Source: Blastocatellia bacterium (GTDB lineage: Bacteria; Acidobacteriota; Blastocatellia; UBA7656). From it: DNA of 64,000 nucleotides. The notes under the pieces were generated by a model, which ran no database searches, was not told the origin of the DNA, and saw only the letters and a list, made by a program, of their open reading frames with translations. Location of the stretch: the NCBI GenBank assembly GCA_963765495.1, contig CAVXWP010000009.1:809240-873239 (forward strand). The letters are read 5' to 3'. Below are positions 4,082-42,938 of the stretch, piece after piece. The first letter of the stretch is position 1. The number at the start of each line of letters is the position of its first letter. The translations under genes and the position numbers were made by a program.

Positions 4082-4222
4082 CGTATCCGGGTAAATAGAG
4101 ACTTTCGAAAAATCGCAAAGAGAGATTATACCACCTACCTCCCTCCTTAATTCATTACCCGAGTCGGCACAAGTACTGAAAGCGGCAACTGCTTCCGCCC
4201 GGATTTCTCTAATCCTCAATTC

Positions 4223-4420
4223 CAAAAATTGGTAACACTTTTGGCCACTCATCTGAAATGATCCGGCAGATACATTACTCCGTTTCCATATGTTTTGTAA
4301 TATATAAATCATTCAAATTTGGCAATTTATCTTACTTAAGTCTTCTTTTACAGATGTTTTCCGGATGTGGCAGTGGTTGTTGGTTATCCAAATATTTGGA
4401 ATTTAATTCAAATATTTGGA
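4223..4420. promoter_or_regulatory. Three copies of palindrome TCCAAA-(A/T)n-TTTGGA (4223-4236, 4387-4400, 4407-4420) in the divergent region upstream of the TonB-dependent receptor gene
   Basis: TCCAAATATTTGGA is a perfect 14-bp palindrome; related TTCCAAAATTTTGGAA recurs upstream of the paralogous receptor at 10697-10712. Confidence 0.45.
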
Positions 4421-4720
4421 TAAATTCAATAAAATTGATCTTCATTGAGGAACAAGAGAAAGCGAGCTAAATAGAGTTATAGCTAAGTTAAGCTCCCAAA
4501 CGGGTTTTCAGGTATAGGAATTGCCTGTATTGAACCGACTCAGGGGACATCCAGAGAGATTATGGGGCAATGCAACAAAGGTACTCACCGACTTTAGATA
4601 CGAGTGTATTTGGTCAAGCACAGGCTCCATTTTTATCAGTATTTCAAGGATAAGCTACTCCCCAAACTCTGTCGGTGAGCAAGACCAAACAATTCAACTA
4701 TTTATGAAGGAGGAGAATCC

Positions 4721-7700
4721 GTGAATAGAATCCTATCGATAAAAGGTTCTTTCCGTAAGGTGAGCAGCTTTCTCATGCTCATCGCTCTCCTGATCGGCCC
4801 CGGCTCTGCATTTTCAGCCCTGGCCTCTTCTCAGGAGATTTCCGGTAGCATTCAGGGGACGGTCAAGGACCCGGCCGGAGCAGTCATCCCCGATGCTTCC
4901 ATCACTGCTACGAGTGATAGACAAACCTTTAAGACCACATCCGACTCTGCTGGCAACTACACCATCTCGGCCCTCCCGCCGGGCAATTATGTAGTTACGG
5001 CATCGGGCTCCGGCTTCAAGTCGGTCAAGCGCGAGAATGTGCCTGTCGTACTTGGAAAGACCTTGCAGGTAAACTTCGACATGGAAGTTGCTGTAAGTGG
5101 AGAAGAAGTGACGATCACGGCAGCCGACGAGCCGCTGGTGGACGTGACCTCTACAAAGACGGCTACAAACGTGACCCAGCAAGAGATCAACGTCATACCG
5201 AAATCACTCAACTTCTCTTCGCTGATTCAGGTAGCCCCCGGAACCCGCGCTGAATCGAAATCAGGTGGATTCCAGATTGATGGAGCATCCGGCTCAGAGA
5301 ACGTCTTTATCGTAGACGGCGTGGAAGTTACCAGAATTGACGATGGAACTCTTGGCCGAACCAAGAACATTCCGAACGATTTCGTAAAGGAACTTCAGAT
5401 CAAGAGCGGCGGATATGAAGCAGAGTACGGCGGAGCGACAGGCGGAGTTGTAAACGTAGTGACCAGAGGTGGGACGAATGATTTCCACGGGGAACTGCGA
5501 TTCGAGTACACGTCTGACACGTTCCGAGCCGAAGACAACCCGACCTTGAGGCTTGCTCCGCAAGATACAGACACATTCGAGTACTTCCATAACCGGGACG
5601 GGAAGGACAAGACACGATTTTTCAGCCCGATCATCAACATCGGCGGGCCGATAGTCAAGGATCACGTATGGTTCTACACGAGCTATGCGCCACAGTACAC
5701 AAGGACGACACAACGGACCGATCTAATCCGTGTCAACCCGGGCGTGGGAGTAGATTCGCTCGACACTCGCTTTATCACGACGCGAGAAAAAATCGACTAC
5801 TTCCTGGGACGGCTTGACTGGGCCGCAAGCGACAGGCTTTCGGTATACGGCAACTTTATCAACAGCCCGATCAAATCCGAAGGTCAGCAACTGGGCGCTG
5901 AAGTCACAGGCTCTACGGCCTTCAATGACATTCGACTCGGCGAAAAAGGCGGCTACGTCCCGGCGTGGCAGGCAGCATTCGGAGTGAACTATTCGGCGAC
6001 GGATCACCTGATCCTGAGCTTCCGAGGCGGCCACACCTATCTCAACGATAAGGGCGGTTCCTACGACATTCCCGTAGGCATCCCGCTCTACACGATATCG
6101 GCTGCCTGCGCTCCTCCGCTCAACGGATGCGCTGCCGGTTCAACAGCTACGGGCACGCCGATCATACAGACCAACTTTGCAACGGCCTTCAACATCACTC
6201 GCCGTACGAACCTCAACTTTGATGCGACCTACATCACGAGGTTCCTCGGCCAGCAGCACACCTTCAAGGGTGGCTATCAGGTCAACCGCCTCAGCAACAA
6301 GGTCAACGAAGGCTATCAGGGCGGGATCATCAACTTCTACTTCAATCGTTCATATCTGGGCGAGCGAGGAACCTATGGTTATTATCGAACGACCGACTTC
6401 GGAACCGTAGGCGATGTCAACAGCAAAAACCAGGGTTTCTTCGTTCAGGATCAGTGGCAGATTCATCCTCGCTTGACCGCAAACATCGGTCTCCGCATTG
6501 AGAATGAGTTCCTGCCCGCATTCCCGATTGACACAACCTTCCACCCGACCATTCCAGCCGACGCGCAGATTTCGACCAAGCCGATTGATTTTGGCTGGGG
6601 CGACAAGATCGCGCCGAGAGTCGGATTGGCCTGGGATGTATTCGGAACCGGAAAGCTGAAAGTCTACGGCAGCTTCTCAATATTCTATGACACGATGAAG
6701 TATGAGCTTCCACGCGGCTCGTTCGGCGGCGATCACTTCATCAGAACATGGTACACGCTCGATACACCGAACTTCACGAGCATCAATCTCGGCAACACGC
6801 CGGGCAACATCATCGACGGACCGCTTGATTTCCGCGTACCGTCAAACGTAGTGCTTGCCGGTGAGCGGCCCACGATTGACCCGAACCTCAAGCCCACTAA
6901 AGAGCGAGAGTACACCTTTGGCGGCGACTATGCGCTGGGCACAAATCTTGTTGCAAGCGCACGATTCACCCGCAAGAGGCTTGACCGAACGATAGAAGAC
7001 ATCGGTGGGCTCGACGCGGCGGGCAACGAAGTGTACACGATAGGCAACCCGGGATTTGGAGTATCGATAACGGACTTCAATCCGCCGACGCCGAAGGCGG
7101 TACGCGAGTACACAGGGTTGGAATTGAGGCTCGACAAGAGGTTCACAAACAACTGGTACGCGAATCTGTCGTACACCTACAGCAAGCTGTATGGAAACTA
7201 CTCCGGGCTGGCCAGTTCGGATGAGAATGGACGAACAAGCCCGAACGTAAACCGCTACTTCGATTTACCGGAGCTTGTGTATGACACACATGGACAGCAG
7301 GTACTCGGCCGGTTGGCAACGGATCGACCGAACACGTTCAAGGCATTTGCCAGCTATCAGTTCCACTACTGGGGAATGAGTACGGACATCGGCGGTACGC
7401 AGTTGATCTACCAGGGCATACCGATCTCGACGATCCTATCGGAGCACGTCGGAGGGGGCGGAGCGGAAATCTATCCCGAAGGCCGAGGCGATCTGGGGAG
7501 AACAGAGGCGTTCACACAGACTGATCTGGTGATCAATCACCTGATCAAGCTGACGGAGAATGTGAAGCTGCGTTTCTCGATGAACGTATTCAATCTGTTC
7601 GACGAGAGAAACCAGACCAACATCTTCGCCAACTATCTTGCGGCGGGCCAGGTAGTGCAGTACGGAAATGCAAATGATTCGTTTGATGTAGCATTTCCGA

Positions 7701-7834
7701 TCTTCATCAACTCGAACGGAGATTGGCAGCAGAGAATCGCGAATCAGGGTCTGGTTGTTGACCCCCGGTTTGGCCAGGCCAACACCTTCCAGGCACCGCG
7801 CGAAGCTCGCTTCGCAGTCGGCGTCCAGTGGTAA
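4721..7834 (+). CDS. TonB-dependent outer-membrane receptor with N-terminal carboxypeptidase-regulatory-like domain (GTG start, RBS GGAGG)
   Basis: 1037 aa; signal peptide, CarbopepD_reg-like domain (GNYTISALPPGNYVVTASGSGF), plug-like region and long beta-barrel; GAAGGAGGAGAATCCGTG start context. Confidence 0.85.
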   Translation: MNRILSIKGSFRKVSSFLMLIALLIGPGSAFSALASSQEISGSIQGTVKDPAGAVIPDASITATSDRQTFKTTSDSAGNYTISALPPGNYVVTASGSGFKSVKRENVPVVLGKTLQVNFDMEVAVSGEEVTITAADEPLVDVTSTKTATNVTQQEINVIPKSLNFSSLIQVAPGTRAESKSGGFQIDGASGSENVFIVDGVEVTRIDDGTLGRTKNIPNDFVKELQIKSGGYEAEYGGATGGVVNVVTRGGTNDFHGELRFEYTSDTFRAEDNPTLRLAPQDTDTFEYFHNRDGKDKTRFFSPIINIGGPIVKDHVWFYTSYAPQYTRTTQRTDLIRVNPGVGVDSLDTRFITTREKIDYFLGRLDWAASDRLSVYGNFINSPIKSEGQQLGAEVTGSTAFNDIRLGEKGGYVPAWQAAFGVNYSATDHLILSFRGGHTYLNDKGGSYDIPVGIPLYTISAACAPPLNGCAAGSTATGTPIIQTNFATAFNITRRTNLNFDATYITRFLGQQHTFKGGYQVNRLSNKVNEGYQGGIINFYFNRSYLGERGTYGYYRTTDFGTVGDVNSKNQGFFVQDQWQIHPRLTANIGLRIENEFLPAFPIDTTFHPTIPADAQISTKPIDFGWGDKIAPRVGLAWDVFGTGKLKVYGSFSIFYDTMKYELPRGSFGGDHFIRTWYTLDTPNFTSINLGNTPGNIIDGPLDFRVPSNVVLAGERPTIDPNLKPTKEREYTFGGDYALGTNLVASARFTRKRLDRTIEDIGGLDAAGNEVYTIGNPGFGVSITDFNPPTPKAVREYTGLELRLDKRFTNNWYANLSYTYSKLYGNYSGLASSDENGRTSPNVNRYFDLPELVYDTHGQQVLGRLATDRPNTFKAFASYQFHYWGMSTDIGGTQLIYQGIPISTILSEHVGGGGAEIYPEGRGDLGRTEAFTQTDLVINHLIKLTENVKLRFSMNVFNLFDERNQTNIFANYLAAGQVVQYGNANDSFDVAFPIFINSNGDWQQRIANQGLVVDPRFGQANTFQAPREARFAVGVQW

Positions 7835-7869
7835 GAGAGTAGTCTTATTAAGTGAAATTCTTTTCACTT

Positions 7870-7903
7870 GCCCGCCCTCTCAGTGAGGGCGGGCAATTTT
7901 ATT
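7870..7903 (+). terminator. Rho-independent terminator (GCCCGCCCTC-tcagt-GAGGGCGGGC followed by AATTTTATT)
   Basis: Perfect 10-bp GC stem plus T-rich tail immediately after the receptor stop. Confidence 0.8.
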
Positions 7904-8165
7904 GAGTGCCCGCCTTATTACGAGCCTCGATTATTCTCGCTTCGCAGCAATAGCGTTTTATATGAATGGTTGGGAATGGGAGTCAGAGGCGGGGTCGCAT
8001 CGACCTGTTGAAATATCGGGCAGGTAGTCGGTAATGACCGGCAGAGAGCGAGATAACCTCGCCGATTATGCTTTTGTGGATGAGCGAAAGTGACCCTTCT
8101 TTTAGCGATCACTTTCCATGTCGCTCGCTACTTTCTCAGCCGCTACTTTCTCAGTCGCGGGGCGG

Positions 8166-9185
8166 TCAATTCTTTTGATTTGCTTTCTCGCGCAACTGCA
8201 CGATCAGGCTTTCGTATTTCTGACGCTGAGCCGTCTGATGCTCAGTCGGCGGGATGGTCTTCAAATAAGCATCCAGGACATCGGCCGCTTCTTTATACTG
8301 CTTGTTGTCGCTATAGAGAGTGGCGAGATAGAGGTAGGCATCTTTTACATCTTCCCCGCCGATTTCAATAGCTTTTTTCAAAAACTGCATAGCTTCCATT
8401 TTTGTATCCTTTGCCTGAGCCAGGACTATTCCCAGTTGCATATTTGTATAAGCCGAATCGGACTTGAGTTCCACTGTGCGCCTGAGCATCTCTATCGCAC
8501 GGTCTCGCTCGTTCAAACTGAAGAGAGTATAACCGAGCAGGTAACAGCTCTGCCAGCTGTCCTTATTTACTTCGACTGCGTGTTCAAGAATCGGCCTTGC
8601 CGCCTCGAACTGATTGCGCTTTACATATTCGAGTCCCATCACCTCAAGCGCGTCATAGTAATCGGGAAAGATTTTGACCGAACTCTTAAAAGCCGCAATC
8701 GCCTCATCGAAAGAGCCCTGTTCCAGGCTTTTCACGCCTTTAAGGTATTCATCTTTGGCTTTAGCCGGGACATCCTGATAAAAGACCAGACCGGGCGACG
8801 CACCCGCTTTTTCGTCTCGTTTTGCCTCTTTTACTCTCAGCACGAAATCAACGCGGAAGACCTCGCCGCCCCGATTGCTGACGGTAAAGGGGTTGACCTC
8901 GACTCTCTCGGTTTGCCGCTCGAAATCCGATCCCGCAGGCTCGACCCTCACATAGAAGGTCCCCGCAGTCAGGTTGTTAAACCTGTAGCGCCCGGCGCTG
9001 TCGGTATAGACCATTCTGAGTTCCGAATAGCCTTCGTTGAGAAGCGATACGCGGGCATTTTGATAGGGTTGATTCTTGGTCGTAGTGACCCGCCCGTCTA
9101 TGGTATTGCGCCCCTGAAAAGCAGAACTGCCGATCAGAGGTTGCCAAAACGTGAGTGCTAGCGCGATGAAAAAAACTGCTGGCAT
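8166..9185 (-). CDS. Secreted protein: carboxypeptidase-regulatory-like domain + TPR repeats (paralog 1 of 3)
   Basis: Signal peptide MPAVFFIALALTFW; GRVTTTKNQPYQNARVSLL...GTFYVRVEPAG domain, then TPR-like repeats; paralogous to 9387-10436 and 14285-15346. Confidence 0.75.
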   Translation of the reverse strand: MPAVFFIALALTFWQPLIGSSAFQGRNTIDGRVTTTKNQPYQNARVSLLNEGYSELRMVYTDSAGRYRFNNLTAGTFYVRVEPAGSDFERQTERVEVNPFTVSNRGGEVFRVDFVLRVKEAKRDEKAGASPGLVFYQDVPAKAKDEYLKGVKSLEQGSFDEAIAAFKSSVKIFPDYYDALEVMGLEYVKRNQFEAARPILEHAVEVNKDSWQSCYLLGYTLFSLNERDRAIEMLRRTVELKSDSAYTNMQLGIVLAQAKDTKMEAMQFLKKAIEIGGEDVKDAYLYLATLYSDNKQYKEAADVLDAYLKTIPPTEHQTAQRQKYESLIVQLREKANQKN

Positions 9186-9304
9186 AACTTTAATTCTCCA
9201 GGTTCCGTCGTCCACAAAATATGATGAGTGATTGGTTGAACACATTCTATCAGAAAAGCTCTTGCGGTTCTATTTATGATTGAGAGAGAAAGCGGGTGGG
9301 CAAA

Positions 9305-9349
9305 GAATAAAAATGGTTCGAGTCGGCAAAAACTTCGCCGACTCGAACC
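9305..9349 (-). terminator. Rho-independent terminator for the 9387-10436 gene (13-bp stem GGTTCGAGTCGGC/GCCGACTCGAACC with T-run on minus strand)
   Basis: Perfect inverted repeat preceded on the plus strand by AAAAA. Confidence 0.7.
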
Positions 9350-9386
9350 TGTTACTGTCGAGGCCGCAGGCGCTGCTGTATTCAGA

Positions 9387-10436
9387 TCACTTCTTTGTCG
9401 CAGCCGCTTTCTCTCTCAGTTTTTCTACAATCTTTTTGAACTGTTCGATCTGGGCTTGAACTTTCTGGTCGCCGTTTTTCGGGAGGGTTTTAATATAAGC
9501 CTCAAGCGCGTCGGCCGATTCGCTATATTGCTGATTCAGATTATACAGCTTGGCAAGTTCGAAATAGGAATCGGGCACCTGGCTGCCCGCCGCATCGGCG
9601 ACCTTCTTCAGTCTCTGAATCGCCTCTTCCCGTGTTGTCTTGTCTTCGGCCAGCGTCATCCCGAGCCGCATGTTGGCGTTTATCGAATCGGGGTTTAGTT
9701 CAAGCGCCTTTCTGAGCGCGCCTATGCCCTCCTCTCGTTGTTTCAATTCAAGCAGGGTGACGCCGAGCGAGTAAAAGGCCCTGTAGGCATCTTTATTTAT
9801 CTCAACTGCGTGAGCCAAAAGCGGGCGCGCAGCCTCATATTCTTGTCGTTTGAGATACTCTGTGCCGAGCATTTCAAGAGCGTAAAAGTAATCCGGGAAA
9901 AGCTCTATGGCCTTCTTCAGCGAGGCCGCCGCCGAATCGAAATCATTCTTATCGAGGCTCTTCATACCTTTCATAAACTCTTCCCTGGCAGGGTCCGGGA
10001 TTTCCTGATGAAAGGTTGTGGCGTCTGCGCCCGTTGGACCTTTGGCGGCGTTCGTGGTTTTTGGCTGGAATCTGAACTCGACCCTGAATATCTCACCGCC
10101 GCCCGTGGTGCTCATGCCGATAGGGTTGACTTCGACCCTTTCGGTCTGCTGATCGTATTCGCCTCCGATTGGTTCTACCCTGACGTAAAACGTTCCGCGC
10201 GGCACGCCCTGCAATCGGAAGCGCCCGGCTCCGTCCGTGTAGGCCAGCCTGAGTTGGCCGTAGCCGTCATCCAAAAGAAAGACGCGGGCATTTTCAAGAC
10301 CCTGATTGTTACCGACCGTCACCCGACCTTCGATAGTGTTAGACGAAGGCCGAATACTTGTATCCTGAAGGATTGGATTGATCGTTCCGCCAAAACCGAC
10401 AAAGACCGATAAGCTGAAGAGAAAGACTAGAAACAC
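9387..10436 (-). CDS. Secreted protein: carboxypeptidase-regulatory-like domain + TPR repeats (paralog 2 of 3)
   Basis: Same architecture and conserved blocks (FPDYYDALE, INANMRLGM, YLYLAKLY) as 8166-9185. Confidence 0.75.
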   Translation of the reverse strand: MFLVFLFSLSVFVGFGGTINPILQDTSIRPSSNTIEGRVTVGNNQGLENARVFLLDDGYGQLRLAYTDGAGRFRLQGVPRGTFYVRVEPIGGEYDQQTERVEVNPIGMSTTGGGEIFRVEFRFQPKTTNAAKGPTGADATTFHQEIPDPAREEFMKGMKSLDKNDFDSAAASLKKAIELFPDYFYALEMLGTEYLKRQEYEAARPLLAHAVEINKDAYRAFYSLGVTLLELKQREEGIGALRKALELNPDSINANMRLGMTLAEDKTTREEAIQRLKKVADAAGSQVPDSYFELAKLYNLNQQYSESADALEAYIKTLPKNGDQKVQAQIEQFKKIVEKLREKAAATKK

Positions 10437-10676
10437 GGTGAAATCCTCCTAAAGAAATGTATTTGCGGATGCGAAGAAACTGCTAAACGGCGCGCCTATT
10501 CTAGCAGATATGTCGATACCAATCTATCAGGGTCAGGGCAAAATCAGCGCCGTCGAGCCATCTGCGGCAAATCTCGCTCCACGAAGGGAGAAGGACTTCA
10601 AGTCGCAAGGGATTTGTCATTTTCATTGAGCCTGGCTCAAAGCCGCCACCTACTGGCGGCAATAGATAAAAGATCA

Positions 10677-10712
10677 TCCAAAATTTTGAATGAAATTCCA
10701 AAATTTTGGAAA
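10677..10712. promoter_or_regulatory. Palindromes TCCAAAATTTTGAA / TTCCAAAATTTTGGAA upstream of the second (pseudogenised) TonB-dependent receptor
   Basis: 16-bp perfect palindrome; same half-site as the sites at 4223-4420. Confidence 0.45.
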
Positions 10713-10968
10713 GCCTACGAACTTTACAAACGAATGGAAAGAGGCTGAAAAGAGCTAAGTAAAAGATATTACTATCTTAACCTGAAACGCTGAATCTTGG
10801 GTATCAAAGTTGCCAGGAAGGGCGGCTACGGGGAATTCCTATAATATTGCGAATGAACAAAACCGAGGCTCCGAACTTCGCAGTAGGATAGGAAAGCTAC
10901 TTCCCAATCTTAGCTAGAGATCAAAGACCTAAAATTTAGGATATCTGTATTTAGAAGGAGGAGAATCT

Positions 10969-13900
10969 GTGAAAAGAGTTTCATCACTAAGAGGTTATTA
11001 CCGTAAGGTGAGCAGCTTCTTTTTGCTCTTGGCTCTCTTGATCGGCCCCGGCTCTGCATTCACAGTGCTGGCGTCGCAGGAGGTAAGCGGCAATATCGAA
11101 GGTACATTGAAAGACTCAAGTGGAGCGGTCATCCCCAATGCAGCCGTCTCTGCAACGAGCCCGCAGCGCACCTATAACGCAACCACCAATGACGAGGGCT
11201 ATTACAGGTTTAACAACCTGCTGCCGGGCGTCTATACGGTCACGGCCAGCGGTACCGGCTTTGGCACGGTCAAGCGAGATGAAGTAACGGTCGAGCTTGG
11301 GCGCACGCTGCAAGTAAACTTTGAATTGAAGCCTGTTGCTTCGGGTGAGTCGGTCACTGTAACCGCGTCAGACGAGCCAATCGTTGACATTACCTCGAGC
11401 AAAACGGCCACCAACATCAGCAAAGAGAAGATTGACATCCTGCCGAAAGCCAGCCTCAACTTCTCATCCGTGATTGATGTCGCTCCCGGCGCTCGCAACG
11501 AGCCTCGTTCGGGGCAGTTCCAGATTGACGGCGCGTCAGGCTCCGAGAACGTCTTTGTTATCGACGGCGTCGAAGTCACTCGCGTCATCGGTGGTACGCT
11601 TGGCTCGACCAAGAACATACCCGTTGATTTCGTTCAGGAAGTTCAGATCAAGAGCGCCGGTTATGAAGCGGAATTCGGCGGCGCGACAGGCGGCGTTATC
11701 AACGTCGTGACAAAAGGCGGAACCAACGAGTTCCACGGCGAGGGTCGTCTTGGAGTACAGCTCCGACACCTTCCGCGCCGAAGACAACCCGACTCTGAGG
11801 ATCGTTCCGTCCGACCCGACGGCGCAGACCTTTGAGTATTTCAATAATCCGAGCGGCAAGGATGATACACGGTTCCTGAATCCGACCTTCCTGCTCAACG
11901 GACCGATCATCAAGGACAAGCTCTGGTTTTCAATCGGAGCCGCGCCCGAATACACCAAGACGACCCGACTGGTTCGCCAACTCACTCCCGTCATCTCGGG
12001 TGATCCCACAAGAACTCTGATCAATTCACGCCCGATTACCCAGAGAGTGCGCAACGATTACAACATCGTTCGTCTTGACTGCCTCGCCGTCGAGCAAGCT
12101 GTCGGTTTACGGCAACTTCATTCACACTCCTTTGAAGACCGAAGGGATCTTGAACTTCGGCTCTTTCACTTCCGGGTTCGATACAACAAGCGCTACTACG
12201 CTTACCGAATCCGCGTTATGATTTCCAGGGCGGTTACACCCCTGCATGGCAGGCTTCTTTTGGCGCGAACTATAGCGTCACCCCGCACCTGATCGTCGCT
12301 TTCCGAGGCGGCCACACATACTTTAATGACAAGGGCGGCAGCTATGACATCCCGGTCAATACGCCGAACCTGATCATCAGCGTTCCGTGCACTTCGACCA
12401 GCAACAATGCCGGCCCGTCCAACTGCACGCCGTTTACGACCTGCAACCGGTGCGAGCATCGTCACAAACCAGACGACCTCGTTCGACATCACTCGTCGTA
12501 CGAACCTCAACTTTGACGCCACCTACATCGGTCGCTTGCTCAATCAGCAGCACACGATCAAGGGCGGCTACCAGACAAACAGGATCAGCAATGATGTTTT
12601 GTTCGGTTTTTCAGGTGGCAGATTCCAGTTCGTCTTCGGACGAGCCAGACCCAGCGGACCGAGGTACCTACGGATATTACGTTGCTGACGAGTTTGCGCG
12701 TTCAGGGTAAGGTCAGCAGCAGCAACCAGGGCTTCTTTATTCAGGACTCCTGGCAGGTTCATCCGCGTCTAACTCTGAACCTCGGTCTGCGCGTCGAGAG
12801 TGAATTCCTTCCTTCGTTCCCGATTGACCGCGCCGGTCACCCGGATATTCCCGAAGGTCATCGAAGCCTCAACCAAGCCGATTGATTTCGGATGGGGCGA
12901 CAAGATTGCTCCGCGTATCGGCGGCGCGCTTGACGTTTTCGGCGATGGCCGATTGAAGATTTCCGGCAGCTACTCGGTATTCTTTGACACGATGAAGTAC
13001 AACCTGCCGCGCGGTTCGTTCGGCGGCGAAATCTTCCTCCGCACTTTCCGCGAACTGAATACGGCTGATGTCTCGGGAATCAGTCTCACGAATCAGCCCG
13101 GCAGAATCATTTCGAAGGTCCGGCAGACCTTCGCTTCCCGGCCAACGTCAATCTGCCCGGCGAGCGTCCCGGCATCGACCCGGACCTCAAACCGTATCGC
13201 GAGCACGAGTTCTCTTTTGCCGGCGATTACACTTTCGGTCGCGACCTCGTTGTCGGCGCGCATTTCACCCGCAAGGTGCTTGATCGCGCAATCGAAGACA
13301 TAGGCGGCGTCGACCCGGTAACGGGAACCGAATTCTTCACAATCGGCAACCCCGGTCGCGGGATTGCCGTGGATGCATTCGATCCTCCGACACCGGATGC
13401 GATTCGTGAATACACCGGATTAGAGCTTCGCGTTGACAAACGCTTCTCGAATCACTACTACTTCAATGGTTCTTACCTGCACAGCAAGCTGTATGGTAAC
13501 TACTCCGGTCTTGCAAGCTCGGACGAAAATGGTCGTACGGACCCGAACGTCAACCGCTACTTCGATCTGCCGTTCCTGAACTTCAACACGGATGGCTCGG
13601 TGCAAAAGGGTCGCCTGGCGACAGACCGCCCGAACACCTTCAAGTTCTTTGGTGGCTACCGTGGAGATTTCAACCTGTTCGGTAAAGGCATGAGCTTTGA
13701 CGTAGGCATTGGCGAGCGCATTTATCAGGGTATCCCGCTCTCGACAGAAGTTCCGACATGGTTGAAGCCGGAAGCGGCGCGGCGGCATTTCTTGCCGGAC
13801 GTGGCGATGTCGGTCGGACCCCCTGGTTTACGCAGACCGACGTGCTCTATACCCACTATATAAACGTGAGCGAAAATGTGAAGCTTCTGTTCCGCATCAA

Positions 13901-14123
13901 CGTGAACAACCTGTGGGATGAGCGCAATGCGACGGATCAGTTCCGCACCCTGCTCGGACCCGGCCAATCGCTGTTCTACCCGGATCTTGCGACCTTTACA
14001 TCGGGTCAGGATTTCCGGCAGCGGATTGCCGACCAGCATCTGGTCACAGACCCGCGCTTCCTCCAGCCGAACGTCTTCCAGACACCGCGTGAGGCGAGGA
14101 TCGCTTTCGGAGTCAAGTTCTAG
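10969..14123 (+). pseudogene. TonB-dependent receptor paralog disrupted by at least 6 frameshifts (fragments 10969-11835, 11750-12292, 12407-12688, 12682-12885, 12800-13303, 13276-13863, 13758-14123)
   Basis: Successive ORF fragments in different frames each align to consecutive parts of the intact receptor at 4721-7834 (for example NVFVIDGVEVTR, TDRPNTFK and the FGVKF C-terminus); same GTG/RBS start context. Confidence 0.8.
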
Positions 14124-14155
14124 TACTGAATCTCAGCACAAGAACTCTTCTTGTC

Positions 14156-14187
14156 GGCCCGTCCTCGAAAGGGGACGGGCTTTTTTG
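14156..14187 (+). terminator. Rho-independent terminator (GGCCCGTCC-tcgaaagg-GGACGGGC + TTTTTT)
   Basis: GC stem plus T-run directly after the receptor pseudogene. Confidence 0.75.
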
Positions 14188-14284
14188 GGTCTGTAGTAGA
14201 CCTCAATCAAGTAGACAGGGGATTTCAGGCGAGGCTTTCACTGTCTGAAGGTGTTTATGCTGAAGAATTACTGTGTGGAAAGGT

Positions 14285-15346
14285 TTATGATCTGGCCTTC
14301 TGTCTCATTTGATCGAGGACTTTTTTATACCGTTCGCGTAACTGCGTTTCGGCTTCGGGATTGAGCTTGATATAGGTTTCCAAGGCGCTGACCGCTTCCT
14401 TATATCGTTCCTTCTCGGCATAAAGCTTTGCCAGATAGAGATAAGCGTCTGGAACCTGCTTTCCGGCCAATGCTGCCACTTTCTCGAAAGATTTTAGGGC
14501 TTCTGCATAGGTCTCCTTGTTATTGACTAAAATCATCCCCAATCGCATATTGGCATTGATCGAATTGGGATTTATTTCAATCGCCCGGCGCAGCGCCTTG
14601 ACCCCCTCATCCGCCTGTTTAAGCTCAACACGCGCAACCCCAAGATAGTAATAGCTGGGCCAGGCATTTTTGTTGATTTCTGTAGCGTGCTCAAGTATCG
14701 GCACTGCCGAGTTGAAATCGTGTCGTCTCACGTATTCTGAACCGAGTTGCTCAAGAGCGTCATAGTAATCCGGGAACAACTCAAGGGCCTGTTTCAGCGA
14801 TTCAATCCCCCTATCGGCATCGTTCTCTTCTATGCTTTTTATGCCGGCGGCATATGCTCTCCTTGCCGCCTCGGGCACTTCCTGATAAAAGACGGCTTCG
14901 CTTGATCTCGCAGTAGCGCCACTCTTTTCATCGCCCGGCAGTCTTCTCGGCTTCAGTATAAAATCCGTGCGGAATATCTCTCCGCCTCTCCCGCCGCTCC
15001 GGCCATTTATGGCCACGGCTTCGATTCGTTGTGATTGTCGCTCGTACATGCCATCGGTCGGGTCTACCAGGATATTGTAAGTGCCTGATGCGACTCCCCT
15101 GAAGGTGAAGCGCCCGGAACCATCCGTATAAACAGTGGCGATTTCAGAGTATGCATCGTTTTGGAGAAAGACGCGCGCGTTGACTATCGGGCGGCGTTCA
15201 GGCGTCATGACCTGCCCGTCAATTGTGTTTCGCGCTTGAGCGATTGCGCCCACGGAAAAGAACTGTCCGCCCGCAAATACCATAGCGATAAACAATGATG
15301 TAATCACGTGCTGTACCTCCCGCAAAGCGATTGATTTGAACGGCAT
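14285..15346 (-). CDS. Secreted protein: carboxypeptidase-regulatory-like domain + TPR repeats (paralog 3 of 3)
   Basis: Same architecture as 8166-9185 and 9387-10436. Confidence 0.75.
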   Translation of the reverse strand: MPFKSIALREVQHVITSLFIAMVFAGGQFFSVGAIAQARNTIDGQVMTPERRPIVNARVFLQNDAYSEIATVYTDGSGRFTFRGVASGTYNILVDPTDGMYERQSQRIEAVAINGRSGGRGGEIFRTDFILKPRRLPGDEKSGATARSSEAVFYQEVPEAARRAYAAGIKSIEENDADRGIESLKQALELFPDYYDALEQLGSEYVRRHDFNSAVPILEHATEINKNAWPSYYYLGVARVELKQADEGVKALRRAIEINPNSINANMRLGMILVNNKETYAEALKSFEKVAALAGKQVPDAYLYLAKLYAEKERYKEAVSALETYIKLNPEAETQLRERYKKVLDQMRQKARS

Positions 15347-15563
15347 CTGATCTGTGCGACGGGCGGCCTGATCCTCAAGACCGGCTTTATCTCGTCATCT
15401 ATGTCGGATTTCAAAGATAAGGCAAGACCTGTTTTTGCCGCGAACTCAGTATTGGAAGAAAGATCATTCTAGCAGAAAAGGAAGCAATCACTCTACACTG
15501 TATTGCGCAAACCGCACGGTCATCACTCTCCTGCTTTTTAATTCGTATCGGCGCGGGTGAAAC

Positions 15564-17519
15564 TCAACCTTGAGAAGATTCTCCCTTGAGCCGGGCGCGC
15601 AGTGTTTCAAGATGCTGGGTCTCTCTTGCCGCGTCCGGCGCGTTCGGTTGTAGTTGCAAGTACCGGCTCAATTGCTCTACGGCTTCCTGCACTCGCCCCC
15701 TATCGGAATAAGCATAGGCCAGAAACTTATAGGTCTCGGCGTATTCGGGCTCTTGCTGCCGCGCGATTTCGAGAAAACGTATGCCGTTTTGCGCGTCGCC
15801 CTCCTTGATATAGGTCGCGCCCATGTGAAAGTTGCTTATGAACAGGTCGGGCTGAATCGCCAGCGCGCGCGCGAAAAAAGCGCGTGCGCGTGCATAGTTC
15901 TTCAATTCGGTATCGAAGGTATAGACGTGTCCGAGCGTATCCCACAGCGCCGGAGATCTATCATTCAGGCTCAGGCCCTTCTCAGCCAACTCGATGGCCC
16001 GGTCGAGATGCGAGCGATCTTTCGTTTGCGTGTACACCTCGATATGCGCCGGGGGCAGATTGGTCAAAACTATATAGTTGCTTGGATCAATCTCCAGACA
16101 TTTTTCAAGTTCTTCAACGGCTTTGTCATATCGTTTCTCTTTTATGTATTTGTGGCCGAGTATGTAGTGAGGCATTAGCTGTTCGTCCGCCACCTCCAGA
16201 CCGTGGGTATAAAGCGCCATATCATCCTTCCATACAGGATTCTGGGCGAGGGATTTCCCGGTCATTAAGAGGCAGATGATTGCTACGATTCCCGCCTGTG
16301 CAACCTTGCGATTGCCGATGGAAAACCATTCTTCAAACGGCACTTTCACAAGCGCCAGAGCTATCAGTAAAGAAAACCCGATTGAAGGCAAATAGACGTA
16401 ACGCTCCTGCACCATGAAGGCTTCGGCGAAGGCGCGAAGATTCAACACAGGCAGCAGGTGGATTGCAAACCACAGCAGGCCGAATCGAGCGATCTGTGAT
16501 CTTCGCAAAGGCCACATCCCGAGCGTGAGTGCGATCAGCCCGACGGCGGGCAAAATGAAACGCGCGCTCAACGCGCTTTGAACCATAGGCGTTTCATGGA
16601 ATAAAGAAAGATCAACAGGCCAGAACAAAAGCCCCAGATACTTGCAGATTACCAGAGGAATTGTCAGCACAACTTCCAGGTTAGTGCCGTGCGTAAATGA
16701 ACCGTCATTGAGCCAGAACCCTAAAGCGTTGCGCCTACAGACGAGGTAGAATGCTATGGGCACTATGAATATCGCCGCATTGATCGCCGACTGTTTTATC
16801 CGCTCCAGAAGAGGCTTTTCCAGATTGATGACGAATATTTCGTAGGCCGCGATGAAGATCGGAAGAGAGATGGCCGACTCTTTTGTGAAGGCCGCCAGCA
16901 GGAAAAAACCAAACGCTCCCGCCAGATATTTCGATCCCCCTTTTTCGCGATAGATCATGTAGAGATAAAATGCCGCCAGCATAAATACAGCGAGCAGAGG
17001 ATCGCTGATGCCGCAAAGCCAGGCTATTGATTCGCTCCGCAAAGGGTGAACTGCGAACAAGACCGCCGCAATCGCCGTCATCTTCAGGTCGCCCGTGATT
17101 CTTTCAAGTATCAGGAATGCCAGATAAACGACCAGCAGATGGACGAGTATATTGGCTACGTGCCAGCCGAACGGGTGGTCTTCAAACATCCACCAGCAGA
17201 CCATCTGGTAAACCGCAAACACCGGGCGGTAATATGCCGAAGTGGGGCCTGTGTCTTTGTTCGGATCCTTGTCCTGAAGCACACGGTAAAACCATAGCTC
17301 TTTTGTGAATACCGTGGGTATATTGGAAAAGTTGCGAACGAGTTTATTTTCAAGGATAAAAGTATTGTCGTCGTAGGCGAATTGATTAAAGACCGAGTTT
17401 GAGAATGCCAGAAACGTGATGCCAAGTATTATCCCTATCACCCATCGCCGTGTAGTATGTGACTCTGAAACGGCGTGCCGACGTTCCTTCTTTGTGCGCA
17501 CGCGACTCTTCTTGCCCAT
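15564..17519 (-). CDS. Polytopic membrane protein with C-terminal TPR repeats (TMTC/PMT-like GT-C glycosyltransferase candidate)
   Basis: 651 aa; N-terminal about 400 aa with many TM helices and an early DD motif (FAYDDNTF), C-terminal TPR repeats. Confidence 0.6.
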   Translation of the reverse strand: MGKKSRVRTKKERRHAVSESHTTRRWVIGIILGITFLAFSNSVFNQFAYDDNTFILENKLVRNFSNIPTVFTKELWFYRVLQDKDPNKDTGPTSAYYRPVFAVYQMVCWWMFEDHPFGWHVANILVHLLVVYLAFLILERITGDLKMTAIAAVLFAVHPLRSESIAWLCGISDPLLAVFMLAAFYLYMIYREKGGSKYLAGAFGFFLLAAFTKESAISLPIFIAAYEIFVINLEKPLLERIKQSAINAAIFIVPIAFYLVCRRNALGFWLNDGSFTHGTNLEVVLTIPLVICKYLGLLFWPVDLSLFHETPMVQSALSARFILPAVGLIALTLGMWPLRRSQIARFGLLWFAIHLLPVLNLRAFAEAFMVQERYVYLPSIGFSLLIALALVKVPFEEWFSIGNRKVAQAGIVAIICLLMTGKSLAQNPVWKDDMALYTHGLEVADEQLMPHYILGHKYIKEKRYDKAVEELEKCLEIDPSNYIVLTNLPPAHIEVYTQTKDRSHLDRAIELAEKGLSLNDRSPALWDTLGHVYTFDTELKNYARARAFFARALAIQPDLFISNFHMGATYIKEGDAQNGIRFLEIARQQEPEYAETYKFLAYAYSDRGRVQEAVEQLSRYLQLQPNAPDAARETQHLETLRARLKGESSQG

Positions 17520-21754: not shown

Positions 21755-21972
21755 AATCGCAAAACAAATATGCTAGATGCTTGCGCCCGTAATAGCAAGA
21801 GAAGACCTGCATGATTTTTGTCGGTGGTAATCTAATTTGCCTCTCGCTTGAAAAGGAGTATAATCGCCCTGAACGGGGTGTTAATTTTAAGAATAAAGTT
21901 TTAACCGTCTCAGCCCTGCTGATGTTGGAGACACAAGAGAAAATCCCGGCGGGCTTTGCAAGAGGAGGGCGT

Positions 21973-23058
21973 ATGAAATTCTATAGAATCAACCTGGCAG
22001 CACTGGCCATTCTCTTCGTGTTCTCGACCGCCTTCGGACAATCGCGCAAGCCAATCTCGCCCGAAGAGCAGAGCCAATACCTTGTCTCGATCAAGGCCGG
22101 CGCTATCAATTTTGCCGAAGGCGATGTCTCTTTCAAACGCGACGAAACCGGCTGGGGCACTCTGATTATGGGCGATGATCTGCGCGACGGCGATGTGGTG
22201 AAGACCGGCGCGGACGGCCACGTAGAGATATTGCTCAATCCCGGTTCTTATCTGAGGTTGAGCGAAAACACCGAACTCGTCTTCACAGACACGGCCCTTG
22301 ACGCCCTGAACCTTAAACTCGTCAGGGGCGCGGCCATCGTAGAGGCATCCGTGGTCGAAGAACCTATAGCGGTTGTGACCTCCGGCGCGGAATATTCCAT
22401 ACAGGAAAAAGGGCTTTATCGGATCAATGTGAATCAGGACGGAAGCTCCGAAATCTTTGTTCGCAATGGCAAGGTTATGGTGGCGGGCACAAAGGTCAAA
22501 AAAGGCAAGAAGGCTTTGATCGCCGGTTCCACGCCGGTCGTTACAAAGTTTGATAAGAAGGAAGAGACCACTTTTGACCTCTGGAGCAAGGACCGCGCCA
22601 GGACTCTGATAGCGGCAAACAAGCAGTTGTCGAATCGAAGGCTGAAATCGACTCTCGCAAACTCCAATGTCTTAGGCATGTGGCTGTACGATCCAGTGAT
22701 GGGTTTTTGCACATTCCTGCCCGGGTATGGTGGTTTTTCTTCACCATACGGATGGGGTTATTCCAGATATAATCCTTACTGGTACAACTACGGCTGGGGA
22801 TACAGCGGCGGATATTATAACGGCGGAAGCTCAAGCGGCGGACAAAATACTGGAACGGGCGGCGGAACCGCAAGCAATCCCGGAACCGGAACGGGCGGCG
22901 GACACAAAGGCGGACACAAAGGCGGCGGCGCGGCTGGCCCTCCGCGTCTGCCAAACCCCGGAAGAGGCAGAGATTTCGGCGGCGCTCCAAGCATTCCAAG
23001 AACCGAGATGCCTGCGCCAAGCTCGGGCGGCGGGAAAGGCCACAGACACGGTAACTGA
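21973..23058 (+). CDS. Secreted FecR-domain protein with Gly/Tyr/Trp-rich low-complexity C-terminal tail
   Basis: Signal peptide MKFYRINLAALAILFVFSTAFGQ; FecR-like block GDVVKTGADGHVEILLNPGSYLRLSENTELVF; tail with GWGY/GGHKGG repeats; RBS AGGAGGG. Confidence 0.65.
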   Translation: MKFYRINLAALAILFVFSTAFGQSRKPISPEEQSQYLVSIKAGAINFAEGDVSFKRDETGWGTLIMGDDLRDGDVVKTGADGHVEILLNPGSYLRLSENTELVFTDTALDALNLKLVRGAAIVEASVVEEPIAVVTSGAEYSIQEKGLYRINVNQDGSSEIFVRNGKVMVAGTKVKKGKKALIAGSTPVVTKFDKKEETTFDLWSKDRARTLIAANKQLSNRRLKSTLANSNVLGMWLYDPVMGFCTFLPGYGGFSSPYGWGYSRYNPYWYNYGWGYSGGYYNGGSSSGGQNTGTGGGTASNPGTGTGGGHKGGHKGGGAAGPPRLPNPGRGRDFGGAPSIPRTEMPAPSSGGGKGHRHGN

Positions 23059-29955: not shown

Positions 29956-30014
29956 GCTTCCCTTGCCAAAGCAGGCACCAGACATTCAATTTCAAATAGG
30001 CTATTATACTAACG

Positions 30015-30488
30015 ATGGGAAAGACGGCTATCTATATCGAAACGAGTGTTGTCAGCTACCTTGTGGCAAGGCCAAGCCGCGACCTTATTGTTGCGGCACA
30101 CCAACAAATTACCTCTGACTGGTGGCATAGCCATAGCCATCAATATGATCTTTTTATTTCACAAATCGTCCTTGATGAATCAAGAGCAGGCGATAAAGAG
30201 ATGTCGAACAAGAGACTTGCTGCTATACAAGACTTGTCGCTTCTGGATATTAATGAAGATGTTATTCAACTCGCTGAACATCTTGTGAATTCTAATGCTG
30301 TTCCTCAGAAAGCAGCACAGGATGCTCTACACATTTCTACAGCATGTGTAAGTGGCATGGATTATCTTCTCACCTGGAATTGCAAACACATCGCAAATGC
30401 AAAAATGCGAAATCAAATTGAAAAAGTGTGCCGAGAAGCGGGTTACTTGCCGCCAATCATATGCACTCCTGAGGAACTGGAGGGTTAA
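30015..30488 (+). CDS. PIN-like domain protein (DUF3368-type?), putative toxin
   Basis: MGKTAIYIETSVVSYLVARPS N-terminus and LTWNCKHIAN C-terminal motif typical of a PIN-like family. Confidence 0.6.
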   Translation: MGKTAIYIETSVVSYLVARPSRDLIVAAHQQITSDWWHSHSHQYDLFISQIVLDESRAGDKEMSNKRLAAIQDLSLLDINEDVIQLAEHLVNSNAVPQKAAQDALHISTACVSGMDYLLTWNCKHIANAKMRNQIEKVCREAGYLPPIICTPEELEG

Positions 30489-30490
30489 GT

Positions 30491-30682
30491 ATGTGGAATG
30501 ACCCCATAGTAGAAGAAACCCGTAGAGTACGAGAAGTCTTAGCATCAAAGTTTGACTATGATGTTAGACTACTGGGCCAATACTATAGATCTCAACAGAT
30601 AAACGAAGGGCGGACTATCGTACGCAGGCAACCAAAGGATCGAGCACAAAGAGTGGAAGAAAGTCCTGTGGTTATGGACCAA

Positions 30683-30688
<6 letters not shown>
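30491..30688 (+). CDS. Small hypothetical protein, translationally coupled partner of the PIN-like gene
   Basis: 65-aa ORF starting 2 nt after the PIN stop; its TAA stop lies within attC 2. Confidence 0.5.
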
Positions 30689-31379
<691 letters not shown>

Positions 31380-31592
31380 ATACACGAATAATTCTTCTAT
31401 TTCGTGTGCTTCGTGTATTTCGTGGTTCACTTTTTGTTAAGACAGAATTTCTAAACCGAGAATTGCTGACAAGACAAGCCCTTTGTTATCAGTGTCATCA
31501 AGAAGGTGATTGAAATGCTTAATTACGAACCGATAAAGAATCGGCTTTGGGTTGTTGAGGAGACTCGAATAAGAATTCGCGGGGAGAAAGAA

Positions 31593-41932: not shown

Positions 41933-42030
41933 AATTTCCTCCTGGCCTGACAGAGGGCCTTGGCCCTCTGTCAACTCTTCTCACGAAAATCCCGGCACGA
42001 ACGCCCCCCGGCACAATCTAGCTTGCGCTT

Positions 42031-42059
42031 CATTGCCCCTCATTGCCCTTCATTGCCCT
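42031..42059. repeat. Tandem 10-bp repeat CATTGCCC(C/T)T x3 immediately downstream of trxA
   Basis: Read directly. Confidence 0.8.
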
Positions 42060-42389: not shown

Positions 42390-42457
42390 GCTTTGTCTCC
42401 TTACCAAATATTTGTAACTGCTTCTGCTACAGATCGGATCAAAAAAATTTCAGACCA

Positions 42458-42892: not shown

Positions 42893-42907
42893 ATCATCCC
42901 TCTTTAC

Positions 42908-42938
42908 TGTAACAAGTATAGTTACAAATCAAAATTTG
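42908..42938. promoter_or_regulatory. Putative Rrf2 operator: palindromes TGTAAC-N7-GTTACA and ACAAAT-CAAA-ATTTGT immediately upstream of the Rrf2 gene
   Basis: Two overlapping perfect inverted repeats within 50 bp of the regulator start. Confidence 0.4.

What the first reader, a model, noticed from the sequence alone, without database searches (positions are those of the whole stretch)
4721..15346. Duplicated module: TonB-dependent receptor followed by secreted proteins with a carboxypeptidase-regulatory-like domain plus TPR repeats
Module A is the receptor at 4721-7834 plus two convergent paralogs at 8166-9185 and 9387-10436. Module B is the receptor pseudogene at 10969-14123 plus a third paralog at 14285-15346. 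All three about 340-aa secreted proteins share a prealbumin-like carboxypeptidase-regulatory domain of the same type as the receptor N-terminus, followed by TPR repeats, with conserved blocks FPDYYDALE, INANMRLGM and YLYLAKLY. Both receptor genes share the same start context GAAGGAGGAGAATC(C/T)GTG and a long, about 300-nt, leader. A fixed pairing of a carboxypeptidase-regulatory-domain receptor with such partners suggests a dedicated uptake or adhesion system whose function is, to my knowledge, unknown.
Basis: partly seen in the sequence, partly recalled or inferred. Interest (0 to 1): 0.55.

Follow-up and report, generated by a model that had tools for sequence, protein, structure and literature searches.

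The report
Receptor plus co-evolving TPR partner module
[quoted passage not shown] The two genes stay adjacent and co-evolve across dozens of genomes.

Summary
recA (4721-7834) is an intact Oar-type TonB-dependent transporter. recB (10969-14123) is the same kind of gene, broken by nine single-base frameshifts but with no in-frame stop. Three ~340-aa paralogs carry a signal peptide, a CarboxypepD_reg beta-sandwich and about 5.5 TPR repeats.

The pairing is not chance:
- Of 59 partner blocks in 51 Blastocatellia loci, 54 lie within 2.5 kb of such a receptor, against about 11% expected. Four of the five exceptions are cut by a contig end.
- Four of four loci sampled through the receptor carry the partner.
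- Only these two gene families are conserved around the loci.
- Partner and receptor distances correlate (Mantel r 0.86). The correlation collapses to 0.21 if partners are swapped within two-module genomes.

New here: the receptor genes sit behind an invariant sigma-54-type -24/-12 promoter. A conserved 35-bp enhancer-like element lies 121-133 nt upstream of it. This explains the "long leader". Partner genes are mostly convergent and lack this promoter.

The partner has no lipobox, no SusD domain and no solved or named relative. Its mechanism is inferred: most likely a soluble periplasmic adaptor of its cognate receptor. I found no description of it in the literature. I rate it a new variant of transporter-plus-accessory systems.

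The parts
4387..4421 (+). Enhancer-like (UAS) element of recA. It holds two palindromic boxes, TCCAAATATTTGGA and TTCAAATATTTGGA, 20 bp apart.
   Evidence: It is homologous to the 35-bp element TTCAAATTTTTGGAAGAAAATCCAGAATTTCATAT. All 13 hits of that element in 936 kb lie upstream of, and on the same strand as, an Oar-type receptor.
4511..4524 (+). Sigma-54-type -24/-12 promoter of recA (GGTATAGGAATTGC), 210 nt before the GTG start.
   Evidence: GG and TTGC are invariant in 12 aligned upstream regions. The pattern occurs only 3 times in the whole window on both strands. It is about 16-fold enriched upstream of receptors.
4721..7834 (+). recA, an intact Oar-type TonB-dependent transporter. It has a signal peptide, CarboxypepD_reg N-terminal extension (aa 43-122), TonB-box-like EEVTITA (aa 128-134, nt 5102-5122), plug and barrel.
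   Evidence: The TonB-box-like block is conserved in alignment A4.
7868..7896 (+). Intrinsic-terminator-like hairpin after recA.
8166..9185 (-). par1, a partner protein with signal peptide, CarboxypepD_reg domain and TPRs. It is convergent with recA. An alternative start lies at 9245.
   Evidence: The database protein P0065 is 339 aa.
9315..9349 (-). Strong terminator-like hairpin between par2 and par1.
9387..10436 (-). par2, the second partner paralog. It is divergent from recB.
   Evidence: It corresponds to P0042.
10677..10711 (+). Enhancer-like element of recB (TCCAAAATTTTGA ... TCCAAAATTTTGGA).
10800..10813 (+). Sigma-54-type -24/-12 promoter of recB (GGTATCAAAGTTGC), 169 nt before the GTG start.
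10969..14123 (+). recB, an Oar-type receptor reading frame interrupted by nine single-base frameshifts, with no in-frame stop.
14156..14181 (+). Terminator-like hairpin after recB.
14285..15307 (-). par3, the third partner paralog, convergent with recB. An alternative start lies at 15346.
   Evidence: P0001 is a 100% match of 340 aa. The AlphaFold2 model has pLDDT 89.4.

Best explanation
The region holds two old paralogous copies of a two-gene outer-membrane transport module specific to Blastocatellia (Acidobacteriota).

Each module has two genes:
1. An Oar-type TonB-dependent transporter. It is probably transcribed by sigma-54 RNA polymerase from a -24/-12 promoter, activated from a conserved 35-bp upstream element.
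2. One or two separately transcribed, usually convergent genes for a Sec-exported, non-lipidated, about 315-aa mature protein. The protein has an N-terminal CarboxypepD_reg beta-sandwich, a flexible linker and a 5.5-repeat TPR superhelix.

What is shown: the anatomy, the conserved adjacency in both directions, the module-specific co-diversification and the promoter architecture.

What is inferred: the partner is a soluble periplasmic adaptor of its cognate receptor. On this reading its beta-sandwich docks on the receptor's periplasmic N-terminal extension, which lies immediately before the TonB box. The TPR groove then holds an extended peptide of a third component, either the TonB/ExbD linker or a peptide or protein cargo.

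Module B in this genome is either very recently inactivated or mis-assembled.
For: Adjacency:
- 54 of 59 partner blocks in 51 loci have an Oar-type receptor within 2.5 kb, with a median gap of 365 bp. 37 are convergent. Chance expectation is about 0.11, and the loci fall into at least 23 flanking-context groups.
- Reverse sampling through the receptor gives 4 of 4.
- Only the two families are conserved around the loci.

Co-evolution:
- The partnered receptors form a distinct clade.
- Partner clades map onto receptor clades.
- Mantel r is 0.857 (0 of 2000 permutations reach it). It drops to 0.212 when partners are swapped within the 7 two-module loci.
- The recB and par3 orthologues are paired in L053.

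Partner properties:
- Signal peptides end ..AQ(A/G)|RNTIEGRV, and none of 42 members has a lipobox.
- The model is confident: a beta-sandwich, a disordered linker and a TPR superhelix. It resembles peptide-binding TPRs such as OGT, SPY, MamA and YrrB.

Promoter and enhancer-like element.

Precedent that a CarboxypepD_reg domain on periplasmic Ton components may work with the receptor N-terminal extension: B. thetaiotaomicron TonB7 and TonB11 carry the domain, and the extension is essential in BT1763 (bioRxiv 10.1101/2023.07.07.548152).
Against: - No interaction was tested.
- The partner beta-sandwich and the receptor N-terminal extension share only the Pfam family, with no BLASTP similarity.
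- Convergent, separately promoted genes are unusual for obligate complex subunits.
- In M. xanthus Oar the N-terminal extension is dispensable for PopC secretion (PMC6434023, section 11).
- Periplasmic localisation rests only on a Sec-type signal peptide and the absence of a lipobox or other sorting signals.
- No TonB, ExbBD, EBP or substrate-processing gene is conserved nearby, so substrate and third partner are unknown.
- One orphan partner exists (L045).
Confidence: 0.45

Rival explanations
1. The partner is a dedicated biogenesis or stability factor. On this reading it is a periplasmic TPR chaperone, like BamD, BepA or LapB-type TPR proteins, that escorts or stabilises its large cognate receptor rather than taking part in transport.
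For: The partner has a TPR scaffold and periplasmic targeting. Co-diversification with the receptor is equally expected for a specific chaperone. A separate, non-sigma-54 promoter fits a factor made independently of receptor induction. NCBIfam gives weak sub-threshold hits to BamD, BepA and LapB models.
Against: Other Oar-type receptors in the same genomes have no such partner (11 non-adjacent receptors). All family-model hits are far below their cut-offs. Nothing explains why a chaperone would carry a domain like the receptor's N-terminal extension.
Confidence: 0.15
2. The partner is a SusD-like or hemophore-like extracellular or surface substrate-capture protein that feeds the receptor from outside.
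For: SusD proteins are built on a TPR-like helical scaffold and pair one-to-one with receptors that carry a CarboxypepD_reg-type N-terminal extension (established knowledge of SusCD). Strict pairing and co-evolution are seen here.
Against: None of 42 members has a lipobox. There is no SusD/RagB Pfam hit. No known surface-export signal is present. At about 340 aa the partner is much smaller than SusD's roughly 550 aa. Most pairs are convergent rather than in a susC-susD operon.
Confidence: 0.12
3. The receptor works outward like M. xanthus Oar. The partner would then be its secreted cargo, or the periplasmic adaptor that hands cargo to it.
For: The receptor has the Oar architecture. [quoted passage not shown] The partner reaches the periplasm by Sec.
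Against: There is no evidence that any acidobacterial Oar-type transporter exports proteins. The partner has no enzymatic or effector domain. A TPR scaffold is more typical of adaptors than of cargo.
Confidence: 0.12
4. The partner is a periplasmic signal relay. It would sense receptor occupancy through the N-terminal extension and pass the signal to a sensor kinase and enhancer-binding protein that activate the receptor's sigma-54 promoter. This would be a sigma-54 analogue of FecA-FecR-FecI cell-surface signalling.
For: A conserved enhancer-like element and sigma-54-type promoter sit upstream of the receptors. The receptor N-terminal domain lies where signalling receptors carry their STN domain. 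The partner is exported and co-evolves with the receptor.
Against: No kinase or EBP gene is conserved near the module, and none lies in the window. The sigma-54 motif is also found upstream of receptors without partners. The partner has no membrane anchor.
Confidence: 0.08
5. The adjacency is chance or mere synteny in receptor-rich genomes, with no functional link.
For: These genomes carry many Oar-type receptors: 11 additional ones appear in the flanks. The genes are mostly not co-transcribed.
Against: 54 of 59 blocks are adjacent against about 0.11 expected. There are at least 23 different flanking contexts. Reverse sampling gives 4 of 4. The within-genome swap test drops r from 0.86 to 0.21.
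Confidence: 0.02

Closest known systems
Myxococcus xanthus Oar (Oar subclass of TonB-dependent transporters; PMC6434023)
   Same: The receptor architecture matches: signal peptide, PF13620 N-terminal extension, TonB box, plug and a large barrel, about 1040 aa in total.
   Different: Only domain-level similarity was established. No dedicated CarboxypepD_reg-TPR partner has been described for Oar. The direction of transport here is unknown. The sigma-54 promoter and enhancer-like element are reported here and are not known for oar.
SusC/SusD (RagA/RagB) pairs of Bacteroidota
   Same: A receptor with a CarboxypepD_reg-type N-terminal extension is paired one-to-one with a co-evolving partner built on TPR-like helices. 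Multiple paralogous pairs occur per genome.
   Different: The partner here is not a lipoprotein and has no SusD/RagB domain. It is about 200 aa shorter and carries its own beta-sandwich. Its gene is usually convergent rather than downstream in an operon.
Bacteroides thetaiotaomicron TonB7/TonB11 (TonB paralogs with a CarboxypepD_reg-like domain; bioRxiv 10.1101/2023.07.07.548152)
   Same: A periplasmic Ton-system protein carries the same domain family as the receptor's N-terminal extension, which suggests contacts between the extension and like domains.
   Different: The partner here has no TonB C-terminal domain, no proline-rich region and no membrane anchor. It has TPRs instead.
CpoB/YbgF of the Tol-Pal system and other periplasmic TPR adaptors
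   Same: It is a small exported TPR protein that binds a TonB/TolA-type energy transducer in the periplasm. NCBIfam gives a weak hit to tol_pal_ybgF.
   Different: The hit is far below the family cut-off. CpoB has an N-terminal coiled coil rather than a beta-sandwich and is not paired with a receptor gene.
PelB/BcsC/PgaA (periplasmic TPR fused to an outer-membrane barrel)
   Same: A periplasmic TPR scaffold is combined with an outer-membrane barrel.
   Different: Those are single polypeptides for polysaccharide export with 16-18-strand porins. Here two proteins combine with a TonB-dependent 22-strand-type barrel.

Membership tests
Oar-type TonB-dependent transporter (recA) | N-terminal CarboxypepD_reg extension (PF13620) | tested here: met
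   E 2.7e-22, 79.4 bits against a cut-off of 32.3, aa 43-122.
Oar-type TonB-dependent transporter (recA) | Plug domain (PF07715) and TonB-dependent barrel (PF00593/PF25183) | tested here: met
   Plug 33.2 bits (cut-off 23.9), PF25183 133.6 bits (cut-off 30), PF00593 36.4 bits (cut-off 27).
Oar-type TonB-dependent transporter (recA) | TonB box between the N-terminal extension and the plug | tested here: inconclusive
   EEVTITA (aa 128-134) matches the conserved block ExVTVTAxxEPIVDVTSSKTATN in 20 receptors. This is motif inspection only, with no binding test.
Oar-type TonB-dependent transporter (recA) | TonB/ExbBD-energised transport (import, or PopC-like export) | not testable with these tools
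   This requires genetics or biochemistry.
SusC/SusD-type pair | Partner is a surface lipoprotein (lipobox Cys) | tested here: not met
   no conserved Cys at the signal-peptide end in 42 members. 21 of them have no Cys at all.
SusC/SusD-type pair | Partner has a SusD/RagB domain | tested here: not met
   only generic TPR families and PF13620 are found.
SusC/SusD-type pair | Partner gene immediately downstream of the receptor in the same operon | tested here: not met
   37 of 54 pairs are convergent. Only 9 have the receptor-then-partner order on one strand.
TonB-dependent transducer / cell-surface signalling (FecA-FecR-FecI) | STN signalling domain on the receptor and an adjacent anti-sigma/ECF sigma pair | tested here: not met
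   One search finds no PF07660. The FecR-like gene at 21811-23058 is 6.5 kb away and is not conserved in other loci.
Sigma-54-dependent promoter | GG at -24 and GC at -12 with canonical spacing (TGGCAC-N5-TTGC) | tested here: met
   GG and TTGC are invariant in 12 aligned loci; 3 hits in the window, 2 of them here; 0.78 per kb upstream of receptors against a background of 0.048 per kb.
Sigma-54-dependent promoter | Upstream activator site about 80-150 bp upstream, bound by an enhancer-binding protein | tested here: inconclusive
   A conserved, partly palindromic 35-bp element starts 121-124 or 131-133 nt before the GG. Binding, the EBP gene and rpoN were not identified in the window.
Slam / DUF560 (TXISS) receptor-associated TPR proteins | C-terminal DUF560 outer-membrane barrel after the TPR | tested here: not met
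   only a faint, sub-threshold TPR_Slam hit. The 340-aa protein ends with the TPR.

The most novel reading that the evidence does not exclude
The partner family is a new class of soluble periplasmic accessory subunit for TonB-dependent transporters. It would recognise the receptor's CarboxypepD_reg N-terminal extension through a like domain and couple it, via a TPR groove, to the Ton machinery or to cargo. That would give the first defined binding partner, and so a testable function, for the widespread but enigmatic N-terminal extension of Oar and SusC-type transporters. The whole module would sit under dedicated sigma-54/enhancer control.
Probability: 0.35. Interest if true: 0.75.

Novelty: new variant of a known kind. 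Interest (0 to 1): 0.6.

Why it matters
About 28% of TonB-dependent transporters have the Oar-type architecture with a CarboxypepD_reg N-terminal extension (PMC6434023), including SusC proteins of gut Bacteroidota. The role of that extension is unresolved. It is essential in BT1763 but dispensable for PopC secretion by Oar.

A partner that carries the same domain family, is strictly paired with its receptor and co-evolves with it offers a concrete candidate interactor. It also offers a tractable two-protein system for testing what the extension does.

Oar-type receptors are numerous in these Blastocatellia loci. Knowing that a subset needs a partner, and that the receptors appear sigma-54/enhancer controlled, would improve annotation. 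At present the partners are labelled only "TPR repeat protein", "TadD", "PilF" or "HemY". It would also help interpret soil metatranscriptomes.

Tried and rejected
- Rfam scan of 4200-15700 at E<=1 gave no match, so there is no known riboswitch or leader RNA.
- Folding of the putative 5' UTRs gave z-scores of 0.04 and -0.66, so there is no evidence of a structured leader. Alignment A5 shows no conserved block between the promoter and the ribosome-binding site.
- The exact palindrome CCAAAWWTTTGG was absent from 51 related loci. This first suggested a species-specific motif. A degenerate search then recovered the homologous 35-bp element.
- The AFDB Foldseek library was unavailable.
- Foldseek and HMM searches against the PDB returned only generic TPR proteins for the partner, and only plug-level hits (YncD, PqqU) for the receptor.
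- BLASTP of the partner beta-sandwich against the receptor N-terminal extension found no alignment.
- The sister genome (93%-identical receptor P0121 on a 943-kb contig) could not be retrieved. P0162 turned out not to be the recB orthologue.
- The profile search of 1.84 billion representatives was swamped by giant repeat proteins. It shows only that at least about 70 full-length clusters at 50% identity exist.
- Cluster look-up gave no organism names.
- Four literature searches on this architecture and two on related topics found no description of the module.
- No conserved promoter motif was found upstream of partner genes.
- No EBP, TonB or ExbBD gene lies in the window.

Full report
**1. 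What is in the window**

- recA (4721-7834, +) encodes 1037 aa. It has a signal peptide, a CarboxypepD_reg domain (aa 43-122, E 2.7e-22), a TonB-box-like EEVTITA (aa 128-134), a Plug and a large OMP_b-brl_4/TonB_dep_Rec barrel. This is the architecture of the Oar subclass of TonB-dependent transporters (PMC6434023).
- Three minus-strand genes encode 42-45% identical proteins: par1 8166-9185, par2 9387-10436 and par3 14285-15307. Each has a signal peptide, a PF13620 beta-sandwich (E 3e-12 to 5e-11) and TPR repeats.
- NCBIfam has no specific model for them. There are only sub-threshold hits to generic TPR families.
- The rest of the 64-kb window contains no other receptor.

**2. The second receptor**

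tblastn shows recB (10969-14123) in pieces across three frames. I ran a frameshift-aware alignment with two guides, recA and the closest intact orthologue.

- Both guides give the same nine single-base frameshifts: seven +1 and two -1.
- There are no in-frame stops.
- After frame correction, identity is 61% to recA and 71% to the orthologue.
- The shifts are not in homopolymer runs. The upstream control elements are intact.
- Other long ORFs in the window are unbroken.

So recB is either a very recent pseudogene or a locally mis-assembled gene. The absence of any nonsense change alongside nine indels keeps the artefact possibility open. Read mapping would settle it.

**3. Is the pairing real?**

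A homologue search with par3 found about 113 clusters with the same architecture and length. Their names are uninformative: "TPR repeat protein", "TadD", "PilF", "HemY". A scan of one genome per species with an alignment of 42 members returned 51 loci. All are Acidobacteriota MAGs, mostly Blastocatellia, Pyrinomonadaceae or Chloracidobacterium.

- tblastn found 59 partner blocks comprising 72 genes. Thirteen blocks are tandem pairs, as in module A.
- 54 blocks have an Oar-type receptor within 2.5 kb, with a median gap of 365 bp.
- Of the five blocks without a receptor, four are cut by a contig end within 270 bp. Only L045 is a true orphan.
- Orientation is tail-to-tail in 37 cases, as in the window. 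The order is receptor then partner on one strand in 9, partner then receptor in 6, and divergent in 2.
- Receptors not adjacent to a partner occur at 0.014 per kb in the same loci. This gives a chance expectation of about 0.11.
- Clustering of all ORFs shows that only the partner family (48 loci) and the receptor family (42 loci) are conserved. The next most common family is in 11 loci. The loci fall into at least 23 flanking-context groups.
- Sampling in the other direction, four receptor homologues on long contigs (59, 55, 49 and 45% identical to recA) all have a 337-345-aa CarboxypepD_reg-TPR gene immediately downstream. Three are convergent. One is co-directional with a 113-bp gap.

**4. 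Co-diversification**

- Partner-adjacent receptors form a clade 33-60% identical to recA over the full length. Other receptors in the flanks align only at 25-30% over the N-terminus.
- A second, more distant receptor class has its own partner clade in a co-directional arrangement with gaps of 64-192 bp.
- Partner clades map onto receptor clades.
- Over 48 cognate pairs, the partner and receptor distance matrices correlate with Mantel r = 0.857 (0 of 2000 permutations reach it). Swapping partners only within the seven loci that hold two modules drops r to 0.212. The signal is therefore module-specific and not just species phylogeny.
- The window's two modules are old paralogs. par3's best relatives are 62-65% identical proteins from other genomes. 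In L053 the par3 orthologue is convergent with the recB orthologue.

**5. The partner protein**

- An AlphaFold2 model built on 42 sequences is confident (pLDDT 89.4). It shows a signal-peptide helix, a seven-strand beta-sandwich (aa 27-113), a disordered linker (about aa 120-140) and eleven helices forming about 5.5 TPRs with a capping helix.
- F140, Q142 and P145 (VFxQxVP), just before the first TPR helix, are invariant or nearly so, as is the FPDYY turn.
- Foldseek and HMM searches of the PDB return only generic TPR superhelices: designed CTPRs, OGT, SPY, MamA, YrrB, APC subunits and PEX5. Several of these are known peptide binders, which is background knowledge rather than something tested here.
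- None of the 42 members has a lipobox. Signal peptides end ..AQ(A/G) directly before the conserved RNTIEGRV first strand. Receptor signal peptides end similarly before QE(T/N)TGxIxGxV.
- The partner sandwich and the receptor N-terminal extension belong to the same Pfam family but show no pairwise BLASTP similarity.

**6. Regulation: what the "long leader" really is**

- The two upstream regions share tandem palindromic boxes (CAAAWWTTTG occurs six times in the window against 0.55 expected).
- A degenerate search shows these are the local form of a conserved, oriented 35-bp element, TTCAAATTTTTGGAAGAAAATCCAGAATTTCATAT. All 13 hits in 936 kb, both strands, lie upstream of an Oar-type receptor and on its strand, including one receptor of the second class.
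- Aligning 12 upstream regions reveals a second invariant block downstream of the element: GGNAT-N5-TTGC, the -24/-12 signature of sigma-54 promoters. The element starts 121-124 or 131-133 nt before this block, so the two spacing classes differ by about one helical turn.
- In the window the signature occurs three times on both strands. Two of the three are at 4511-4524 and 10800-10813.
- Across the loci it is found upstream of 38 of 63 Oar-type receptors (0.78 per kb against a background of 0.048 per kb), but upstream of only 3 of 76 partner genes.

I infer that the receptors are transcribed by sigma-54 polymerase, activated by an enhancer-binding protein bound to the 35-bp element. Partners would be transcribed from their own promoters. 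Terminator-like hairpins separate the units.

The remaining 145-185 nt of 5' UTR shows no Rfam match, no unusual stability and no conserved block. No EBP gene lies in the window.

**7. Mechanism**

Shown: a two-gene module that is inherited and diversifies as a unit, an exported non-lipidated partner, and a TonB-box-bearing receptor.

Inferred, about 0.45: the partner is a soluble periplasmic adaptor.

- The receptor's N-terminal extension lies in the periplasm immediately before the TonB box.
- A partner with a like beta-sandwich could dock there. Its TPR groove could then hold an extended segment of TonB/ExbD or of cargo.
- There is precedent. B. thetaiotaomicron TonB7 and TonB11 carry the same domain family, and the extension of BT1763 is essential (bioRxiv 10.1101/2023.07.07.548152).
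- Against this, the Oar extension is dispensable for PopC secretion (PMC6434023), and the genes are mostly convergent.

The rivals are listed below with their probabilities.
- A dedicated assembly chaperone: 0.15.
- A SusD-like surface cap: 0.12. The defining features of lipoprotein, SusD domain and operon order were all tested and not met.
- Cargo or export adaptor of an Oar-like secretion route: 0.12.
- A signal relay to the sigma-54 activator: 0.08.
- Chance adjacency: 0.02.

**8. Novelty**

Neither four full-text searches on this architecture nor two on related topics found a description of the module. NCBIfam has no family model for the partner, and the PDB holds no specific relative. The receptor is a member of a known kind. 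The obligate, co-evolving soluble partner and the sigma-54/enhancer architecture are new features. I class the module as a new variant of transporter-plus-accessory systems. Interest is moderate to high, mainly because it offers a handle on the unexplained N-terminal extension of Oar and SusC-type transporters.

Noticed in passing
window 42404-42415 and 43149-43160: Two further single copies of the CAAAWWTTTG palindrome. One lies between an Rrf2-like regulator gene (42458-42892, -) and a thioredoxin gene (42060-42391, -). The other lies at the start of a radical SAM/SPASM gene (43126-44307, +). Neither has a sigma-54-type motif nearby. They could bind the same factor as the receptor elements, or be unrelated.
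   Followed up: partly
L021:7980-9920, L023:4177-6156, L026:7996-9915, L029:7999-9915, L036:9965-12016, L048:9959-11896: A longer partner variant of about 640-680 aa. It carries a roughly 300-aa C-terminal extension with no Pfam or PDB match, and usually sits in tandem with a normal-length partner.
   Followed up: partly
L003:11356-15695, L007:5128-9473, L011:4374-8556, L012:5142-9377, L015:15246-19628, L035:1972-6219: A second module class. A distant Oar-type receptor (25-30% identical to recA) is followed on the same strand, after 64-192 bp, by its own partner clade. In L012 it carries the same 35-bp upstream element.
   Followed up: partly
loci L007, L030, L036, L037, L041, L053, L054 (receptor upstream regions): The sigma-54-type -24/-12 motif also precedes Oar-type receptors that have no adjacent partner. 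Sigma-54 control may therefore be a general feature of these receptors in Blastocatellia.
   Followed up: partly
L045:9833-11044: The only partner gene with full flanks and no receptor within 10 kb. It lies between priA and a Uma2-family gene.
   Followed up: partly
window 15564-17519 (-): A 651-aa protein with a multi-pass membrane N-terminal part (no Pfam hit) and C-terminal TPRs lies 217 bp upstream of par3 on the same strand. It is not conserved next to the module elsewhere.
   Followed up: no
window 30001-32000: A stretch of low G+C (0.449 against about 0.53 elsewhere) with only short ORFs.
   Followed up: no
window 41975-43125: Between an SDR gene and the radical SAM/SPASM gene lie the Rrf2-thioredoxin pair and about 230 nt of non-coding sequence. 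I did not look for a short precursor-peptide gene for the SPASM enzyme.
   Followed up: no
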